Part shown: positions 3,501-40,026 of the stretch, piece by piece
Numbering within the stretch: the stretch's first letter is position 1
Layout: the number at the start of each line of letters is the position of its first letter
Source: Chiloscyllium plagiosum
Taxonomy: Eukaryota
Assembly: GCF_004010195.1 (NCBI RefSeq)
Contig: NC_057719.1
Location: forward strand, 36,157,842 to 36,200,196
Length of the DNA stretch: 42,355 nucleotides
Direction: 5' to 3'
The notes under the pieces: model-generated
Seen by the model: only the letters and a program-made list of their open reading frames with translations
What the model was told of the DNA's origin: nothing
Databases searched by the model: none
Translations under genes and position numbers: made by a program

Positions 3501-5232
3501 TATTAATACACTTCCGAAGTGGATTTTGTTATAATTGTGAGATTTGTTAATGATCTGATTGTGGTTTTGATGTTTCAGATTCTTTTCATGCCCCAAAGAA
3601 TATTTCACTTCCCCAGATTTTGAAATATTTTAATGTGTAGCATGGTCAGGGATTGAGAAAAATTACTCTATTTACCTTCCTTATTCCTGGAATATGGTAG
3701 AATAATACCATGGTAGATTTGATTTGCATATCAATTTATTAATATGCAAAGTTAAGGAACAAGGAAATAACAGCATGGCTGACAAACTTACCTAGCCCCA
3801 CTAGTAACTAGGAAGAATAAAAGACTCACAGCTGCTACAATGTTTTAAACAATATTTTTATCTTTTTCTCATCATCTATGAAGCCTGGTTAGACCTTGCA
3901 AAGACTTCAGGCAAAACATCCGACATTAAAAAAAGTTTGCCAAATGCCTTAAAAATAGTACTTGGGAATAAACAGATTTAAATCAACTGGGGAGCAATCT
4001 GACAATTATTGGAAAAGGCATTGCTGAGGGCATGGCCAGCAATGGAGTTGAAAACATTGCAAATGATGATATTTTCATACTTAACTCTCCTTATATCTCA
4101 CTTCTCCTTCATCTGACACAACTTCATTGTTTACAAGTTGCAAATGATGTTAACTTGTATCCATTATTTGCCTCTCATCCCCACACCCTAATTGTACCCT
4201 TATTTCTTTTTTTCTTCTTTCCCAGAAAGTACAACCTGGCCAGATAGTGCAGGAACACAAAAACAGGATGAAAATTGATAGCAGATAGCCCAGTAGCTGC
4301 CCTTTGGTTTGTTGTGCTGGCTCCAGGGCAGCTGGAATGATAGCCTGCTGAATAATGAAGGTATCCTCATTGCTGTTATGGATCTTTTTAAATTAGGTTA
4401 CGATGCAAGATGTTTCATAAATTGCATTGCATTTATTTACTTATCCACAGAAATCTGATGAGGGAAGGTGAGATCCTATCCAGACCAGAAGGGTAAGCTG
4501 AGTGATTCTGACAGGGGGGGACCTTTTTTCCTCTTAGCGCACAAACTGTGCTGTAAAAGCATTTTTTTTTCCTTTATGTGTCTGGAAGTGCTATCACACA
4601 CAACCAAATGGCTTTCTTCACCACTTAATCACCCTTGGGAATGTTCACCTATTAAACCAGCTCCATTAAGTCACCCATGTTTCCAAACGTTCAATTTACA
4701 TGAAGACATTTGGAGACCAGTCCCTCTCTCTATCTCTTCCTTTGGTGATCTGTATTGCCCTTCATGGGATTTGCATGTAAATTAACCAGTCAGAAAATTG
4801 CTGGAGGTGGTTAATAGGTGGAAAAAATAGCACGGCCATTTGGTGATGGGAAAAAAGTCATATTCAGTTATGTATAAGAGCATATCTGGCTAGTTAAAAA
4901 AGAAATTAAAAAGTGACATGCTTTATTTTTTTAATTAACTTGTTTAGATACGCTTTTGCACGTCCCTGGAATAGATGGGACTTGAACCTCAGCCTTCTGG
5001 GTGAGAGGCAGGGACACTACCCTAAGACACTTGCTTCTAAAGGTGTCCTTAACTTAGCTCAGCTCCAGGTTTCATGTGGCCTAGGGCACCTGGTCAACCA
5101 GCCTGCCAATGTCTTTAAAAAATATTTAAGTGATCCATCCATCTCCTGAGTACTCTTTCTCCTGTCCTGTCTTCATCAAAACCTGAGGTATGTGGGTTGG
5201 AACAGGGTTTACAGCTATTATATGTTCAAGAT

Positions 5233-5360
5233 TGTGTTGCTGGGAAAGCACAGCAGGTCAGGCAGCATCCGAGGAGCAGGATTCTTCCTGACCTGCTGTG
5301 CTTTCCTAGCAACACATTCTCGACTCTGATCTCCACCATCTGCAGTCCTCACTTTCTCCT
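5233..5360. mobile_element. Palindromic PLE terminal-repeat derivative with deleted centre
   Basis: TGTGTTGCTGGGAAAGCACAGCAGGTCAGG ... CCTGACCTGCTGTGCTTTCCTAGCAACACA inverted arms (5233-5316) plus tail shared with 16184-16319 and 34386-34608. Confidence 0.8.
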
Positions 5361-5430
5361 AACTATTTTATATTCCATGATGGTCTGTTCTCATCGACTG
5401 GATTCTGGATTAGTGGTGCTGGAAGAGCAC

Positions 5431-5757
5431 GGTGGCACAGTGGTGGGCGGCATGGTGGCACAGTGGTTAGCACTGCTGCCTCACAGCGCCAGAGACCCGG
5501 GTTCAATTCCCGCCTCAGGCGACTGACTGTGTGGAGTTTGCACATTCTCCCCGTGTCTGCGTGGGTTTCCTCCGGGTGCTCCGGTTTCCTCCCACAGTCC
5601 AAAGATGTGCAGGGTCAGGTGAATTGGCCATACTAAATTGCCCATAGTGTTAGGTAAGGGGTAAATGTAGGGGTATGGGTGGGTTTCGCTTCGGCGGGTC
5701 GGTGTGGACTTGTTGGGCCGAAGGGTCTGTTTCCACACTGTAATCTAATCTAATCTA
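5431..5757 (+). mobile_element. HE1-type tRNA-derived SINE, full length
   Basis: A box TGGCACAGTGGTTAG, B box GGGTTCAATTCCC (~5499-5511), central GTGTGGAGTTTGCACATTCTCCCCGTG domain, CR1-like 3' end and (TAATC)n tail. Confidence 0.9.
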
Positions 5758-5798
5758 AAAAGCACAGCAGTTCAGGCAGCATCCAAGGAGCAGCGAAA

Positions 5799-5831
5799 TC
5801 GACGTTTCGGGCATAAGCCCTTCATCAGGAA
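5799..5831 (-). ncRNA. Minimal type I hammerhead ribozyme motif, intact core
   Basis: Reverse complement TTC-CTGATGA-A-GGGC-TTAT-GCCC-GAAA-C-GTC-GA: both core boxes, 4-bp helix II, GUC triplet; helix I short. Confidence 0.75.
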
Positions 5832-5922
5832 TAAAGGCAGAGAGCCTGAAGCGTGGAGAGATAAGCTAGAGGCATCAGGAGTAAAGGCAGAGAGCCTGAA
5901 GCGTGGAGAGATAAGCTAGAGG
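5823..5922 (+). repeat. 50-bp tandem duplication
   Basis: CATCAGGA(A/G)TAAAGGCAGAGAGCCTGAAGCGTGGAGAGATAAGCTAGAGG at 5823-5872 and 5873-5922. Confidence 0.95.
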
Positions 5923-5944
5923 AGGGGGGGGGTGGGGAGAAAGT

Positions 5945-6750
5945 ACTACAAGATCGAGTGAGCAATTGGTACCCAATCTGATTGTCAGGGACCAGCTCTG
6001 ATTTCCAGAATTCTCAACAGCAAGCTTGTTTGCAGGATAGGAAAATGAATATTAACAAGCTGAGTTGTGGTGTTTGTATGGACAATTATTTGCTTTCTTG
6101 ACATTGAACATAGCAAGAAAAAATGCATCAACCAGATTTTGTTCATAAACATATAATTATCGATTTATTCCAAAACAAAATGCATTTTCTGACATGGCCT
6201 TTTGGTTGAATAAATGTGTAGGCAGCTGGCACATTCTAGAGGTATTAGATCAACACCTTGGTGTGATGTTCTGGAGTGACAAGCACAACAAGCAGATTGA
6301 CTATCTGTACGTGCAACAAAAGCACATCAATAGGTCATTACTGTTAGGGTTCAGCTCAGGTATGAAGCACCTACAATTATAGCAATTATAGCAATTATAG
6401 CATAGCAAGCCAAGATGAGACAATGCATGGATATTGTGAGCAGGCAAGGAGTGAGCACTACAAGATCGAGTGAGCAATTGGTACCCAATCTGATTGTCAG
6501 GGACCAGCTCTGATTTCCAGAATTCTCAACAGCAAGCTTGTTTGCAGGATAGGAAAATGAATATTAACAAGCTGAGTTGTGGTGTTTGTATGGACAATTA
6601 TTTGCTTTCTTGACATTGAACATAGCAAGAAAAAATGCATCAACCAGATTTTGTTCATAAACATATAATTATCGATTTATTCCAAAACAAAATGCATTTT
6701 CTGACATGGCCTTTTGGTTGAATTAATGTGTAGGCAGCTGGCACATTCTA
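5945..6750 (+). repeat. 294-bp direct repeat (5945-6238 and 6457-6750) with 218-bp spacer
   Basis: Copies offset by 512 bp; only one mismatch seen (GAATAAATG vs GAATTAATG). Confidence 0.95.
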
Positions 6751-8373
6751 TAGGTGTAGAAATGGTTGACACACACAATTTTTAATATGGAAAGATAAAT
6801 GATCACACCTTTAAATTACTCAAAATGCACACAAAAACACACTCAGACATAAATACACTTGAGGTTAAGAGAAAATTGATATTTCTCTTCATGGTTTCAA
6901 AAGAAAATGCTTTCTGGCTAAACATGGATTATTCTTGACGGCTATAAAGATAAAGTGTGGGATGTTCCAAAGACTGTCAACCTTAGTCCTACACATGTTA
7001 TCAAGGCACTAATCATGCTTGGTTATCTCTGGGATCTTGGCAGGCATGGCTTGCTAAGGAAATACAATATTGTGAAGTTCTTTCAGTCACGTTTTTGTAG
7101 AAGAAGGACAAGGTTTCACACTGAATTCACCTCAAAGGTGATTCAAAAAGGGAAGCCCAAATTGGACAGCTTGTTCTTAGCAAGCTTTCGCCAACTAAGC
7201 CTAAAATAGAAATTTGAAACCTGCAAACACTGTTTGAATAAAATAGCTATAAAATCCAGTCATAAAAAAAAGAAATGATTTCATGAAGTGAGTTCAAGCA
7301 ACCAAAACAAGCAATTAACAGTATAGTTCCAACATCTTTTCATTGACCTTTTAAGAAAAGTCAGGCTTCTTTAAAATCAAGTCTTCAAAGAAATATTAAA
7401 TATGAATTGACTTTGTAAAAATATTGTGCTAAATTTTAAACAAAAATGAAGGTTTAACCTGCTTCACTATATTCTAAATCTAAACTGCACTGTTGGGCTA
7501 CTGACAAATCTGGCATCTTCTTCGAAGAGGCTGAGGTAGCATCAAAGGCAAAGTTGTTGCCAGGGAATAGTTGTGGGTTTTGGGTAGTTGGCCAAGGTAG
7601 AGGCCTAAGAGTTGGTTATATCCACAAGCAATTGCACATCAAGGACAAAAAGAGTCTCGGTCAAGTTCTAATTTTCAGCATTCTGGATGATTTTTTTGTG
7701 ATTGTTTAATGTGCGCTCTTTCATGGAGAATATATTGTTTGTTGGATTAATGAATAAATAACAAATACTGGTGAAAAATATATGCTTTTTGAGCAAAGCA
7801 TAGTATTGCGTTAAGAGGTTACATGCGATTTGCATTTTTTGATTTTATTTTGTTCTTTCTCATACAAGAAATATTAACTGGCAGTTCAGAATCAATGCAG
7901 GGTGTAGCTTTTATTGTAATTTGATATGGAATATTCTGAATTAATCTGAACAATTAGTTCTTCATAAATCCTTGAACATAAACATTTGTAATAATAATGT
8001 TATCAAACAAAATGTGATAATTTCAAAACATATTTTATTACCACTGGCTGTTCTCCTATCCGCTGTTTAAATTTCTGGAATGAGACTTGGGCTGAATTTT
8101 CCTAATTTGATGCAAGGTGAGATCCATAGCTCCTGGTCTACTATAGCTCAGAACAACTTTTCTCATGTAGTCTTCAGTCTCCCTCACCTCGTTAGTTATG
8201 TAATCAGGCTCTATGTTGCCCTTCCCATGGTACATGGAGCAATAGAGGGAGAGGTGCTCAGCCCTGTCAGGGTCTTTCAGCCTTCATGCTATATCTGGTG
8301 CTATATTTAAAACCCAGCTTCTCATCACTTCAGAGGCTGCAGACTGTGTTGCTCAAACATTATAATTGAAGAC

Positions 8374-15647: not shown

Positions 15648-16183
15648 CTTTGCCAACCACTTTAAATTGGAGTCCACTGGATCTAAACCCTTCCACTAAA
15701 GTGAACAATTTCTTCCTAATAACTCTGCCAAGCCACATCATGATTTTGAATACCTCCAGCAAATCTCCTCTCAATCTTTGCTTTTCCAAGCAGAATTACC
15801 TCTGTGTCTCCAATTTATCCATTCATCCTTCAATGCCTTCACATCCTTATGAAACAGTGATGCTAGGGTTCTCCAGAACTCCAACACTCCAGTGGCGTAT
15901 GAGTGAGTTTTTATACAGTGTTATCAGAGCTTCCCTGTTTTTGTATTCTATTCTCCACTTTACAAAATTCTGGATCACATATGCTCTCTCCTACTGCTCC
16001 CTCTCCTTCACTGACTTGAACACAAATATCCCAGGTTTCTCTACTTCTGCATTACTTTTAGAATTGCATCCTTGATTTTATACTGTCTCTCTTTGCATCT
16101 CCTACCAATATGAATCACTTCATGCTCCGTGAGGCATTAAATCTCACCTCCCATTTCAGGAAGATGGTGGAGTATTGCTTTGA

Positions 16184-16319
16184 AAAGCGCAGCAGGTCAG
16201 GCAGCATAAGCCCGAAACGTCGATTCTCCTGTTCCTTTGATGCTGCCTGACCTGCTGCACTTTTCCAGCAACACATTTTTAAGCTCTGATCTCCAGCATC
16301 TGCAGTCCTCACTTTCTCC
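16184..16319 (+). mobile_element. Short palindromic PLE derivative with 14-bp TSD
   Basis: GAGTATTGCTTTGA at 16170-16183 and 16320-16333; retains GCCC-GAAA-C-GTC half of the hammerhead. Confidence 0.88.
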
Positions 16320-16349
16320 GAGTATTGCTTTGACAAACCTGACAAACGT

Positions 16350-18863: not shown

Positions 18864-18994
18864 ACATTAACAATCACTTGTCAGCACAGTACCTGAATAT
18901 TGTTGTAAAAGGGATTGTGAGGCTAACTTGTGATCATTTTATAGATACCATTCTTGCACTTGTCCTGAATGATGAAAAAGCTTCAACAGGATGT

Positions 18995-19322
18995 ACATGT
19001 ATTTGGAAAGGCAAGGACTGATTAGGAATAGTCAGCATAGCTTTGTGCATGGGAAACCATGTCTCATAAACTTGATAGATTTTTTTGAAAAAGTAACAAA
19101 GAGGATTTATGAGGGCAGAGCGGTAGTTGTGATCTAAATGGACTTCAGTAAGGCATTTGATAAGGTTCCCCATGGGAGACTGATTAGCAACGTTAGATCT
19201 CATGGAATACAGGGAGAACTAGCCATTTGGAATCAGAACTGGCTTAAAGCGGGTGGTGGTGGAGGGTTGTTTTACAGACTGGAGGCCTGTGACCAGTGAA
19301 GTGCCACGAGGATCGGTGCTGG
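18995..19322 (+). mobile_element. CR1 RT N-terminal fragment
   Basis: LIRNSQHSFVHGKPCLINLIDFFEKVT...DFSKAFDKVPHGRL...WRPVTSEVPRGSVLG. Confidence 0.92.
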
Positions 19323-19442
19323 GAAGCACCAACGCAGACACAAAACTGCCACTGCTGTGGAAACACATGTCAGGCAGCAGCAAATTGCTGCTGGAAAGAA
19401 GCTGTGTGCAGAAACTGCAGCATTAAAAAAGAAGATATTAAG

Positions 19443-19820
19443 CGAGAAGAAGTTTGAGAGGCAACTCAATTGAGATATACAAGACAATCAAAGGGTTAGA
19501 CAGGGTGGACAGCGACAGCCTGCCTCCCCGGACGGTGATGGCCGGCCTGAGGGGACCCAGCTCCACATTGAGGGGTGATAGGTACAGGACAGATGCCAGA
19601 GGCAGCCTCCCCACCCAGAGAACAGCAGGCGCACGGAACGCACTGCCCGCAACAGCAGTTGACCTGCCAACCTCAAGGGCATCCAAACGGTCATTGGATA
19701 GTCACATGGGCGAAAACAGAACAGTGCAGTCCAGAAGGGCCTCAGATTGGCCCGACAGGCCGGCGCAACACCAAGGGCTGAAGGGCCCCAACTGCGCTGC
19801 AATCTCCCATGTTCCACGTC
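19443..19820 (+). mobile_element. CR1 3' end with T-to-C hypermutation
   Basis: Colinear with 39660-40026; 12 T>C and 0 C>T in 66 aligned nt (19556-19621 vs 39775-39840). Confidence 0.9.
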
Positions 19821-19822
19821 GC

Positions 19823-19897
19823 AAAAGCACAGCAGTCCAGGCAGCATCCAAGGAGCAGGGGAATCGACGCTCCGAGCATGAGCCCTCCACCAGGAAC
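19823..19897 (-). mobile_element. PLE terminal repeat/hammerhead fragment with T-to-C hypermutation
   Basis: Colinear with 5758-5832; 6 T>C and 0 C>T. Confidence 0.85.
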
Positions 19898-20010
19898 CAG
19901 CAACCACACAAGTCACCTTCAAAAGTGAAAGCCACAACTGAGGCACCAGCAGCCAGCCACCCGAAAAGCACCAAAATGGTGAAACATGAGCCGAAGAAGC
20001 CAACAAGCAA

Positions 20011-20118
20011 GGGTGCTGGCAGGTTGGACTAGATTGGGTTGGTATATCTGGTCAGCATGGACGGGTTGGATCGAAGCGTCTGTTTCCATGCTGTACATCT
20101 CTATGACTCTATGACTGT
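20011..20118 (+). mobile_element. CR1 3' terminus, no T>C bias
   Basis: GGTGCTGGCAGGTTGGACTAGATTGGG...CTCTATGACTCTATGAC, as at 13274-13372. Confidence 0.9.
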
Positions 20119-34385: not shown

Positions 34386-34608
34386 ATTGAGAGTGTGTTG
34401 CTGGAAAAGCACAGCAGGTCAGGCAGCATCCGAGGAGCAGGAAAATTGACTTTTCGGGCTGGAGCCCTTCATCAGGAGTTCCTGGCGAAGGGCTCCAGCC
34501 CGAAAAGTGGATTTTCCTGCTCCTCAGATGCTGCCTGACCTGCTGTGCTTTTCCAGCAACACACACTCAACTCTGTTCTCTAACATCTGCAGACTTCACT
34601 ATCTCCTC
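34386..34608. mobile_element. 223-bp palindromic PLE derivative with back-to-back hammerhead cores and 15-bp TSD
   Basis: TGCTCTGCATTTACA at 34371-34385 and 34609-34623; ~85-bp arms about centre CAGGA-GT-TCCTG; minus core CTGATGA-A-GGGCTCCAGCCC-GAAA-AGTC, plus core mutated to CTGGCGA. Confidence 0.92.
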
Positions 34609-37820: not shown

Positions 37821-38468
37821 TAGGCTCTGCTTCCAGTCGATTTTCCAGTCATGCCCCTGTAATTACCTTTATTTAACTGTAACACCATTACATCCGATTT
37901 TGCCTTCTCTCTTTCAAACTACACACTGAACTCTACCATGTTATGATTGCTTCCTCTTAAGTGTTCCCTTACTTTCAGATCTTTTATAAAATCTGGCTCA
38001 TTACATAACACTAAGTCCAGAATAGCCTGCTCCCTTGTGGGCTCCATCACAAGCTGTTCCAAAAAGCCATCCTATAAGCATTTCATGAACTCCCTTTCTT
38101 TGGATCCACCAGCAACATTATTTACCCAGTCCACCTGCATATTGAAGCCCCCATGATCACTGTGACCTTGCCTTTCTGACGTGCCCTATCTATTTCCTGG
38201 TACATCTTGCGCCCCTGGTCCTGACCACTGCTGGGAGGTTTGTACATAACTCCCATTATGGTTTTATTGCCTTTGTCATTCCTCAACTCCACCCACACAG
38301 ACTCCACATCATCTGACCCTATGTCATTCAGTGGCATACATTTATTTCATACTTAACTAACAAGGCAACCCTGCCCCCTCTGCCCACCTCCCTGTCTTTT
38401 CGATAAGTTGTAAATCTTTGGATATTTAACTACCAGTCCTGAACCCCCTGCATCCACATCTCTGTGAT

Positions 38469-38554
38469 AAAGGACATTTGCCCGAAATGTCAATTTTCCT
38501 GTTCCTCGGATGCTGCCTGGCTGGTTGTGCTTTTCCAGCACCACACTCTTGGCT
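38469..38554 (+). mobile_element. 86-bp PLE terminal-repeat insertion with 14-bp TSD inside CR1
   Basis: CACATCTCTGTGAT (38455-38468) / CACGTCTCTGTGAT (38555-38568); contains GCCC-GAAA-TGTC. Confidence 0.88.
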
Positions 38555-39477
38555 CACGTCTCTGTGATGGTAACCACATCGTAATCATTCATGATGGTTT
38601 GTGCTGTTAATCATCGACTTTGTTATGAGTACTATGAGCTAACTTTCTTATCATTATTAGAGATATTGGAAATCATAAGATGTTCTAAGTTATCCTTCCT
38701 TTTTGCTGCATTCCTAGTCTGCCTTGAGCTTAAGCCCACCTGCACACATGCTATTCTGCTGCTTATCTTTCCATTTAACTCCATACACCCTGTTGCTTTT
38801 GCTTTCCCTCCCCCCCCCCCCCACCGAATCAGAAGTATGAAGTCCTACTGACCACCCTATTTATCCTTTTCGCTAGAACACTGGTTCCAGATCAGTTCAG
38901 GTGGAGAACGTCCGTTTATGTGTCTGATTGTTACATACCTTTATTCTAGTGAATCTTTCTCAAGAGTTTTTAAAAGATATCTACCGCTTGACTGTTCTCT
39001 TGTACCACACGGACTTGTACCTGGCAATGTAAAATAGGCAAGTTAAACATTTAAAGCAAGAGTGCCATCTACAGATAGAAAGACAGTGTGTTTTTATTTC
39101 AAATTTTAAAAAATGAAGACATTTCAGATAGACAAATTTAATGTGTTTTAATTCTGTAATGGATATGGTCCATTTATATGTGTTTCTGGATCTGATTTAT
39201 GAAAACAGAGAATGAGTAAACTTTAATTGAAATCATAATGTTTCTGTCTGCATCATGAGTAGATTTATTTCTTTTTGTCCAGATTTATTTGAAGTTTCAA
39301 ATTCCATTGTTATGGTACTAGCATTAAAACAAAATAAAGCCGGAATAATTATGCCTCTATATTTTCCAGACTGGGTGCACCGGCACATAATTTAGCATTT
39401 GGGCTTCTGAGCCTGCCCACTCCAAACCTGTATCTATCTCTCTCTCTCCTTTTTAGTCTTTCTTTCTCCTTTTACTT

Positions 39478-40026
39478 TTGCAGTTGTATAAGACTCTGGT
39501 GCGGCCGCATCTGGAGTATTGTGTGCAGTTTTGGTCGCCATACTATAGGAAGGATGTGGAGGCACTGGAACGGGTGCAGAGGAGGTTTACCAGGATGTTG
39601 CCTGGTATGGTAGGAAGATCGTATGAGGAAAGGCTGAGGCACTTGGGGCTGTTTTCACTGGAGAAAACAAGGTTTAGGGGTGACTTGATAGAGGTGTACA
39701 AGATGATTAGGGGTTTAGATAGGGTTGACCATGAGAACCTTTTTCCACGTATGGAGTCAGCTATTACGAGGGGGCATAGCTTTAAATTAAGGGGTGGTAG
39801 GTATAGGACAGATGTTAGGGGTAGATTCTTTACTCAGCGAGTCGTGAGTTCATGGAATGCCCTGCCAGTAGCAGTGGTGGACTCTCCCTCTTTATGGGCA
39901 TTTAAGCGGGCATTGGATAGATATATGGAGGATAGTGGGCTAGTGTAGGTTAGGTGGGCTTGGATCGGCGCAACATCGAGGGCCAAAGGGCCTGTACTGC
40001 GCTGTATTTTTCCATGTTCTATGTTC
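39478..40026 (+). mobile_element. Young 5'-truncated CR1 LINE, open ORF2 C-terminus
   Basis: QLYKTLVRPHLEYCVQFWSPYYRKDVEALERVQRRFTRMLPG...WNALP uninterrupted to stop at 39948; ATGTTCTATGTTC tail. Confidence 0.95.

What the first reader, a model, noticed from the sequence alone, without database searches (positions are those of the whole stretch)
19323..20011. Candidate ADAR-hyperedited RNA written back into the genome
Seen: the CR1 piece here has 12 T>C, 0 C>T and 7 other differences over 66 nt against the in-window relative (19556-19621 vs 39775-39840). The adjacent unrelated PLE piece has 6 T>C and 0 C>T against 5758-5832. The non-repeat stretch to 20010 is also T-poor, while the flanking CR1 pieces look normal. 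Known: neutral decay favours C>T, and clustered A>G on one strand is the ADAR A-to-I signature. Inference: a minus-strand transcript spanning two repeats and unique sequence was hyperedited, reverse transcribed and integrated. Caveats: three A>C changes also occur, which could indicate a base-calling bias toward C, and the comparator is a related subfamily rather than the true source.
Basis: partly seen in the sequence, partly recalled or inferred. Interest (0 to 1): 0.9.

Follow-up and report, generated by a model that had tools for sequence, protein, structure and literature searches.

The report
Hyperedited RNA fragment copied into genome
A 688-base piece of junk repeat DNA in this animal genome has about half of its adenosines changed to guanosine on one strand, most likely because an RNA copy was heavily edited by the enzyme ADAR and then reverse-transcribed into the germ line, although one standard ADAR signature is missing.

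Summary
Window 19324-20011 is an insert from a composite of LTR-retrotransposon, CR1 and Penelope-like relics. Against that donor, 63 of 71 substitutions are T>C (minus-strand A>G), with no A>G or G>A. Outgroups show T is ancestral at 51 of 63 sites. Edits fill 19467-19971 (63 of 121 sites, 52%) and stop inside the insert. The flanking CR1 is unedited and older. Exact C-bearing contigs occur in three runs from three studies, so it is not a base-calling error. Best reading: an ADAR-hyperedited antisense RNA was reverse-transcribed into a break in an old CR1, replacing about 870 bases between two copies of an 8-mer. Against: 5'-U, A and C sites fit human ADAR1 rates, but 5'-G sites are edited 14 of 28 versus 1.2 expected. 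The duplex partner is unidentified and the left junction is unconfirmed by reads. Precedents are somatic retroviral; ten paper searches found no germline non-viral case. This scan noted a similar case in another genome (e1-7810917).

The parts
18986..19323 (+). Left part of the target CR1-type LINE relic (RT region), not edited
   Evidence: RVT_1 weak hit for 19138-19296 (E=0.0017); 85% identical to L002 and L026; 25 private changes in 295 sites, only 2 of 80 ancestral T read C. The CR1 label is recalled from sequence features.
19315..19322 (+). 8-mer GGTGCTGG at the left junction; its first six bases and 19325-19330 form a 6-bp stem across the junction
   Evidence: Identical to 20012-20019; random-position frequency 1.4e-4 for the 8-mer match and 4.8e-3 for the stem
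19324..20011 (-). The insert, 688 bp; the edited strand is the minus strand; it has no retroelement tail or terminus of its own
   Evidence: 89% identical to L002 over 19324-19978. The Logan donor contig (X1 record 7) matches to exactly 20011 and then diverges.
19324..19440 (+). LTR-retrotransposon relic with a Cys-rich, gag-knuckle-like frame; unedited (0 of 20 donor T read C)
   Evidence: Homologues lie upstream of the RT piece in the same orientation in L037, L040, L047, L048. No relevant Pfam hit; the gag label is by eye and recalled.
19441..19819 (+). 3' piece of a CR1-type LINE; 51 of 102 donor T read C
   Evidence: 15 of 34 and 36 of 68; 86-87% relatives genome-wide for the donor version
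19820..19897 (-). Penelope-like repeat fragment with a decayed hammerhead-like core on the minus strand; 6 of 11 donor T read C
   Evidence: The CUGAUGA and GAAA core is visible in the in-window copies and CUGAUGA in the donor, but edited in the insert. No Rfam match in L001, L002, L033, so the label is recalled.
19898..20011 (+). LTR-retrotransposon RT relic plus a short tail shared with two old paralogues; 6 of 13 donor T read C up to 19978
   Evidence: Homologous stretch in L035 lies between RVT_1 and RT_RNaseH_2 hits. L033 and L034 are 81-82% paralogues.
19467..19971 (-). Hypermutated zone: 63 of 121 adenosines (52%) read as G against the donor
20012..20116 (+). 3' end of the target CR1, starting with the second copy of the 8-mer; not edited
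   Evidence: 0 of 31 ancestral T read C, 4 private changes in 102 sites. X7 record 23 runs exactly across this junction, 30 letters into the flank.

Best explanation
A composite of dead retroelement pieces was transcribed on the strand antisense to its CR1 and LTR-element parts. About 500 nt of that RNA sat in a long duplex and was deaminated by ADAR to near saturation; its 3' about 140 nt stayed unedited. A fragment of the RNA was then reverse-transcribed (inosine read as G) from a DNA end inside an older CR1 copy in the germ line. The most likely route is repair of a double-strand break: the ends were trimmed back to the two natural copies of an 8-nt microhomology, about 870 nt of the CR1 were lost and the cDNA filled the gap. 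Insertion with an 8-bp target-site duplication into an already deleted CR1 is the less likely route (my odds about 60:40 for break repair). SHOWN: the insert, the donor, the direction and strand of change, confinement to the insert, presence in independent DNA data, the junction sequences. INFERRED: transcription and its strand, the duplex, ADAR as the enzyme, reverse transcription and which polymerase did it. The product is almost certainly functionless.
For: 63 of 71 substitutions are of one type on one strand. Polarised against outgroups, changes private to the insert are 49 T>C, 1 T>G, 1 G>T at 486 sites. The 52% level matches the 50-60% ceiling for long dsRNA (PMC3113232, passage). 5'-U sites are edited 27 of 33 (p=7e-5). 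With published hADAR1 coefficients scaled on the 93 non-G sites, observed vs expected counts are U 27/25.5, A 14/17.2, C 8/6.3, a log-likelihood gain of 10.9 over a uniform rate. Edits cross three unrelated repeats and stop sharply within the insert. Flanks are unedited and carry 4-8% private change vs 0.4% non-T>C change in the insert, so editing came before or with insertion into an older element. Exact C-bearing contigs of 415, 287 and 204 letters occur in runs X1, X3, X7 from three studies. The donor is independently real: X1 record 7 differs from the window at 12 places in 19840-20011, the same number as L002 does in 19840-19978. An intact relative has 879 nt between the same two anchors that are 698 nt apart here.
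Against: 5'-G sites are edited 14 of 28 vs 1.2 (hADAR1) or 1.0 (hADAR2) expected, P<1e-5; over all 121 sites the ADAR models fit worse than a uniform rate (log-likelihood -97.2 and -103.7 vs -83.8). Three of the 14 can be put down to donor-side changes; 9-11 remain. Strong 5'-G depletion is reported for all metazoans tested, a set that includes elephant shark (PMC5625713, passage). PMC3197674 notes relatively more GAA and GAG sites in ultra-editing, but still a deficit. No 3'-G enrichment. The one duplex I can point to, a 250-nt hairpin with a young CR1 end in the donor path, does not predict the edits: 36 of 68 inside, 27 of 57 outside, pairing test p=0.45, and that path may itself be an assembly chimera. 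No listed read contig spans the left junction or 19324-19436 (table cut at 32 pieces). The donor is a sister, not the exact template: 5 of the 63 sites look like donor-side C>T and 7 cannot be polarised.
Confidence: 0.62

Rival explanations
1. Same insertion, but the adenosines were deaminated in DNA. A plus-strand RNA was copied into minus-strand cDNA, ADAR edited the cDNA in the persisting RNA:DNA hybrid, and second-strand synthesis fixed dI as G. The unedited 143 nt would be the last cDNA made.
For: Needs no dsRNA partner and explains the even density across CR1, Penelope-like and LTR pieces. The plus strand is the sense strand of the CR1 and LTR parts. Full-length ADAR2 edits the DNA strand of a 90-bp matched hybrid in vitro (PMC5389660, passages).
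Against: In that paper only three sites of the 90-bp hybrid reacted, RNA duplexes reacted faster, and GA sites were again the poorest (19-27% vs 94% for TAG), so the 5'-G anomaly is not explained. A review calls in-vivo editing of retroviral hybrids unknown (PMC12925331). The left junction, which would prime on a minus-strand RNA, shows 2-4 nt of homology with the donor; the right shows about 1 nt.
Confidence: 0.13
2. Not ADAR. A polymerase or reverse transcriptase put G opposite T/U at about half of the sites (for example under dATP shortage), or an uncharacterised adenosine deaminase acted on a single strand.
For: The 5'-G depletion that defines ADAR sites is absent. Predicted pairing does not track the edits.
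Against: The other three 5' classes fit hADAR1 quantitatively. The level equals the ADAR ceiling. The sharp start at 19467 after 0 of 22 sites suits a structure boundary. Other error types are absent (2 non-T>C private changes in 486 sites). There is no excess at sites preceded by C on the plus strand (15 of 27), which a slippage model would favour; that expectation is recalled, not from a call.
Confidence: 0.18
3. The C version is ancestral or a C-rich subfamily, and the donor drifted C>T.
For: At 5 of 63 sites outgroups have C, and most non-T>C differences are donor-side.
Against: Outgroup majority is T at 51 of 63 sites. Donor-only changes number 8 at 486 sites vs 49 insert-only T>C. Only one C-type locus appears among the 40 scored candidates of each genome search (lower bounds).
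Confidence: 0.03
4. Sequencing or assembly artefact.
For: This assembly does contain gap-filling errors involving the donor sequence, and the left junction has no listed read support.
Against: Exact C-bearing contigs cover 19437-19852 (X1, one 1-nt gap), 19566-19852 (X3) and 19838-20041 (X7); at most one of these three samples can be the assembly's source. An artefact could at most affect the left junction, not the substitutions.
Confidence: 0.04

Closest known systems
[quoted passage not shown]
   Same: Clustered A>G on one strand, near 50% of adenosines, reaching DNA through reverse transcription.
   Different: Those are infectious retroviruses in culture or somatic cells, edited on their own genomic RNA. 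Here the sequence is a non-viral mosaic of dead repeats, antisense to its coding parts, 500 nt long, inherited in several individuals, and without the element's own ends.
APOBEC DNA editing of LTR retrotransposons in vertebrate genomes (PMC4866542, term search and one passage; PMC2873906, passages)
   Same: A deaminase footprint on a retro-intermediate fossilised in the reference genome and detected by source-copy comparison.
   Different: That is G>A from C-to-U on cDNA. PMC4866542 filtered for G-to-A and its main text has no mention of ADAR.
Endonuclease-independent L1 insertion at double-strand breaks (PMC1920257, abstract); Pol theta RNA-templated repair (PMC8195485, abstract)
   Same: Tail-less retro-derived insert with deletion of target DNA, here about 870 nt, with microhomologies at the ends.
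   Different: The abstracts mention no editing. Here both copies of the microhomology are retained, and the polymerase is unknown.
Endogenous MMTV Mtv61 5' end (PMC12548423, passage)
   Same: A germline retro-sequence with an A>G excess whose context does not match ADAR.
   Different: A mild excess (131 A>G of 479 mismatches) in a provirus, against 63 of 71 here.

Membership tests
ADAR hyperedited RNA | Dense A>G on one strand with few other changes | tested here: met
   63 of 71 substitutions; insert-only changes 49 of 51
ADAR hyperedited RNA | Level up to the 50-60% ceiling of long dsRNA | tested here: met
   63 of 121 = 52%; ceiling from PMC3113232
ADAR hyperedited RNA | 5' neighbour order U > A > C | tested here: met
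   27/33, 14/30, 8/30; fits hADAR1 coefficients
ADAR hyperedited RNA | Strong depletion of G 5' of edited A | tested here: not met
   14 of 28 vs 1.2 expected; 13 of 26 on outgroup-confirmed sites
ADAR hyperedited RNA | 3' neighbour preference (G in amniotes, A in the other group of PMC5625713) | tested here: inconclusive
   3'-G 15/27, A 18/30, C 15/30, U 15/34; the 3'-G test gave p=0.83
ADAR hyperedited RNA | Edited zone coincides with a double-stranded region | tested here: inconclusive
   The donor-path hairpin covers only 19568-19819 and does not predict edits; the true donor locus is not assembled
ADAR hyperedited RNA | Source is transcribed on the edited strand | not testable with these tools
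   No holder on record as RNA; the laid runs were contigs without strand
Classical target-primed retrocopy (CR1/L1-type) | 3' tail of the mobilising element at the insert end | tested here: not met
   The insert ends inside the LTR-element relic, 470 nt short of the CR1 tail of the donor path
Classical target-primed retrocopy (CR1/L1-type) | Target-site duplication without target loss | tested here: inconclusive
   An identical 8-mer flanks both ends, but both copies are native to the intact CR1 and about 870 nt between them are missing; no empty allele seen
Endonuclease-independent insertion at a break | No tail, target deletion, junction microhomology | tested here: inconclusive
   No tail and an apparent deletion are met; that deletion and insertion were one event needs the pre-insertion allele
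APOBEC-edited retroelement | G>A / C>T clusters | tested here: not met
   0 G>A and 1 C>T against the donor

The most novel reading that the evidence does not exclude
The adenosines were deaminated on DNA during integration (ADAR acting on the cDNA of an RNA:DNA hybrid in the germ line), or by an adenosine-deaminating activity that, unlike known ADARs, tolerates a 5' G. Either would be a natural A-to-G base editor leaving heritable 50% hypermutation in a vertebrate genome, and genomes rich in active LINEs should hold a searchable fossil record of it.
Probability: 0.2. Interest if true: 0.9.

Novelty: new variant of a known kind. Interest (0 to 1): 0.63.

Why it matters
It is a clean single-event case of RNA-editing-type change becoming inherited DNA: some 55-60 substitutions at once, with the unedited source still in the genome as a control. 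A 2016 review says roles of ADAR editing in Alu subfamily evolution had not been determined (PMC4982230, passage), and the large vertebrate screen for edited retroelements filtered for G-to-A only (PMC4866542). This locus gives a template for the mirror screen (A/G-collapsed source-copy alignment). Such copies would escape ordinary repeat annotation as falsely 'old' elements, would bias divergence-based dating, and would record which RNAs were double-stranded in past germ lines. The 5'-G anomaly makes the enzyme and substrate question testable. The insert itself is unlikely to have a function.

Tried and rejected
Donor as a young 28-copy retro-family: rejected as read from the assembly. All 26 anchored copies among L003-L029 are identical to L002 from at least 258 nt left of the insert start to their end; 14 stop at the same base, 13 of them at an N gap; and seven run on into upstream ORF2 of a young CR1 (read by eye). 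That is the pattern of one collapsed path pasted into gaps. The T version is nonetheless real and deeper than the flank in reads (82 vs 8.05 in X1; 259.6 vs 12.3 in X3; the tool warns that depth is not a copy number).

Donor-internal hairpin as the editing substrate: not supported.

CpG decay as the cause of low editing at 5'-C sites: rejected, since no G>A accompanies it.

The 196-codon open frame at 19442-20032 has no Pfam match; loss of T removes stop codons, so it is taken as a by-product.

Rfam found nothing in L001, L002, L033. Pfam on 120 of the 247 open frames of 55 codons or more found only three RVT_1 hits and no host gene.

Presence in related organism B (X8): inconclusive. No contig covers 19817, and 19969 and 19971 read T only, but a share of depth 31.3 is non-T at 19901-19905.

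Empty or pre-deleted allele: none among the fetched loci or the 15 joints shown of 289.

A genome-wide screen for similar clusters could not be run because the genome is not available as a file, and only one of eight wanted stretches around donor relatives could be fetched.

Five of six look-ups of earlier findings by words or place gave nothing or only e1-7810917 as relevant; one search listed 8 of 20 hits, 7 of them on other subjects.

Full report
Setting. The window lies on contig C10 of a 3.56-Gb animal assembly. It is made almost wholly of retroelement relics; Pfam found only RVT_1 in 120 of 247 open frames tested. The repeat types look like those of cartilaginous fishes; that and the labels CR1, Penelope-like and Gypsy-type are recalled from sequence features and were not established by a call.

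Observation.

The donor. Searching the genome with 19323-20011 returned a sequence 89% identical over 19324-19978 (L002) and shorter identical versions. Against it the window has 63 T>C, 8 other substitutions, a 2-nt gap, and no A>G, G>A or A>C. Edits run from 19467 to 19971: 63 of 121 sites there, 0 of 22 before. By part, counting all donor T: gag-like relic 0 of 20, CR1 piece 51 of 102, Penelope-like piece 6 of 11, RT relic 6 of 13. The many donor 'copies' in the assembly are not trustworthy as copies. All 26 anchored ones are identical over the shared part, 14 end at one base, 13 of these at an N gap. The donor sequence itself is real: a read-derived contig in run X1 differs from the window at 12 places over 19840-20011, as L002 does over 19840-19978, and stands at about ten times flank depth. 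Its true locus is not assembled.

Direction of change. Outgroup majority is T at 51 of the 63 sites, C at 5, and other or absent at 7. At 486 sites with a clear outgroup state, changes private to the insert are 49 T>C, 1 T>G and 1 G>T; changes private to the donor number 8 and are mixed. So the template was a close sister of today's donor and roughly 55-60 of the differences are true edits.

Not an artefact. Contigs identical to the window version cover 19437-19852 in X1 (one 1-nt gap), 19566-19852 in X3 and 19838-20041 in X7, from three samples in three studies. The last crosses the right junction by 30 letters, one short of the tool's bridging rule. No listed piece crosses the left junction; the table showed 32 pieces of more than 350,000. 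Whether the related organism B carries it is unresolved. Among the window and 50 fetched loci (190 kb, 7157 alignments) no other dispersed repeat shows such a skew.

Junctions and age. Both flanks belong to one CR1 subfamily in colinear order. The same 8-mer, GGTGCTGG, ends the left flank and starts the right one (chance 1.4e-4). Both copies are native to that CR1, and an intact relative has 879 nt between anchors that are 698 nt apart here, so the 688-nt insert stands in place of about 870 nt. The flanks are unedited (0 of 31 and 2 of 80 ancestral T read C) and carry 4 private changes in 102 sites and 25 in 295, against 2 non-T>C changes in 486 for the insert: a young insert in an older element. 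The insert has no tail; the nearest CR1 tail in the donor path is 470 nt beyond its left end. I favour one break-repair event, with ends trimmed to the microhomologies and then patched with cDNA, because the alternative needs a later insertion to hit an earlier deletion joint exactly. This resembles endonuclease-independent L1 insertion (PMC1920257, abstract); Pol theta can copy RNA (PMC8195485, abstract). A 6-bp stem across the left junction (chance 0.5%) would fit fold-back priming, but that is speculation.

Is it ADAR? For: the type and strand of change; the 52% level against the 50-60% ceiling (PMC3113232, passage); the sharp internal boundary; and 5' neighbour rates of U 27/33, A 14/30, C 8/30, which match hADAR1 coefficients (supplement 2 of PMC3113232) at 25.5, 17.2 and 6.3 expected. 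Against: 5'-G sites are edited 14 of 28 against 1.2 expected, and with them included the ADAR models fit worse than a uniform rate. Three can be explained by donor-side changes; 9-11 remain, mostly plus-strand TCA. 5'-G depletion is reported across metazoans including elephant shark (PMC5625713, passages) and in ultra-edited human RNA, though there GAA and GAG are relatively commoner (PMC3197674, passages). There is no 3'-G preference. The only duplex I could model covers half the zone and does not predict the edits. No RNA evidence was obtained. I therefore do not file this as a proven ADAR product; it works like one on three of four motif classes.

Verdict on mechanism. ADAR editing of minus-strand dsRNA followed by reverse transcription, 0.62. 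Non-ADAR misincorporation or another deaminase, 0.18. ADAR on the cDNA of an RNA:DNA hybrid, 0.13 (possible in vitro: PMC5389660, passages). Artefact 0.04. Donor-side drift 0.03.

Comparison and novelty. ADAR-type clusters fixed in DNA are known from retroviruses (PMC12925331, passage; PMC8025556, passages), and APOBEC G>A fossils from vertebrate genomes (PMC2873906, passages; PMC4866542, term search and one passage). One endogenous MMTV has a mild A>G excess without ADAR context (PMC12548423, passage). Ten full-text searches (listings seen, most hits not opened) showed no report of a germline, non-viral hyperedited insert with its source; the library lacks most subscription papers, so this is not proof of absence. 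An earlier unchecked note of this scan describes an edited hairpin fossilised in a LINE in another genome (e1-7810917); it agrees in kind and is not independent support. I rate this a new variant of a known kind, interest 0.63.

Noticed in passing
L002-L029 (for example G000:C20:61325002-61325618, C9:3656713-3657365): One collapsed sequence path appears pasted into many assembly gaps that start at a young CR1 3' end: 26 anchored copies are identical over the shared part, 14 end at the same base, 13 at an N gap. Repeat-family calls in this assembly can be gap-filling artefacts.
   Followed up: partly
L089, L090, L091: A second arrangement of the same gag-like relic, continuing into a protease-like stretch and another CR1, is present 98-100% identical at three places. 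Read depth over 19359-19409 is about 70 times the flank in X1 and X3, so this composite looks recently amplified.
   Followed up: partly
L033 (C30), L034 (C19): Two old paralogues (81-82%) share the donor's RT-relic-to-short-tail arrangement and are followed by the same CR1 subfamily, which suggests an old duplicated composite.
   Followed up: no
window 5936-6243 and 6448-6755: A 308-nt direct duplication, 98% identical, 512 nt apart, with no other match in the window; recent tandem duplication or an assembly duplicate.
   Followed up: no
window 34387-34607, 16172-16322, 38439-38563, 5229-5361: Penelope-like fragments occur repeatedly as closely spaced inverted or partial palindromic pairs; copies at 5750-5840 and 34395-34485 keep a hammerhead-like CUGAUGA and GAAA core on the minus strand. 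They are natural dsRNA substrates.
   Followed up: partly
window 19247-19250: The target CR1 has an 11-nt deletion relative to the copy at 302-400, another small loss in the same element.
   Followed up: no
L024:515-836 and 1686-2122: A simple tandem repeat with a 12:2 T>C skew between unit blocks, the only other skewed alignment in the survey.
   Followed up: no
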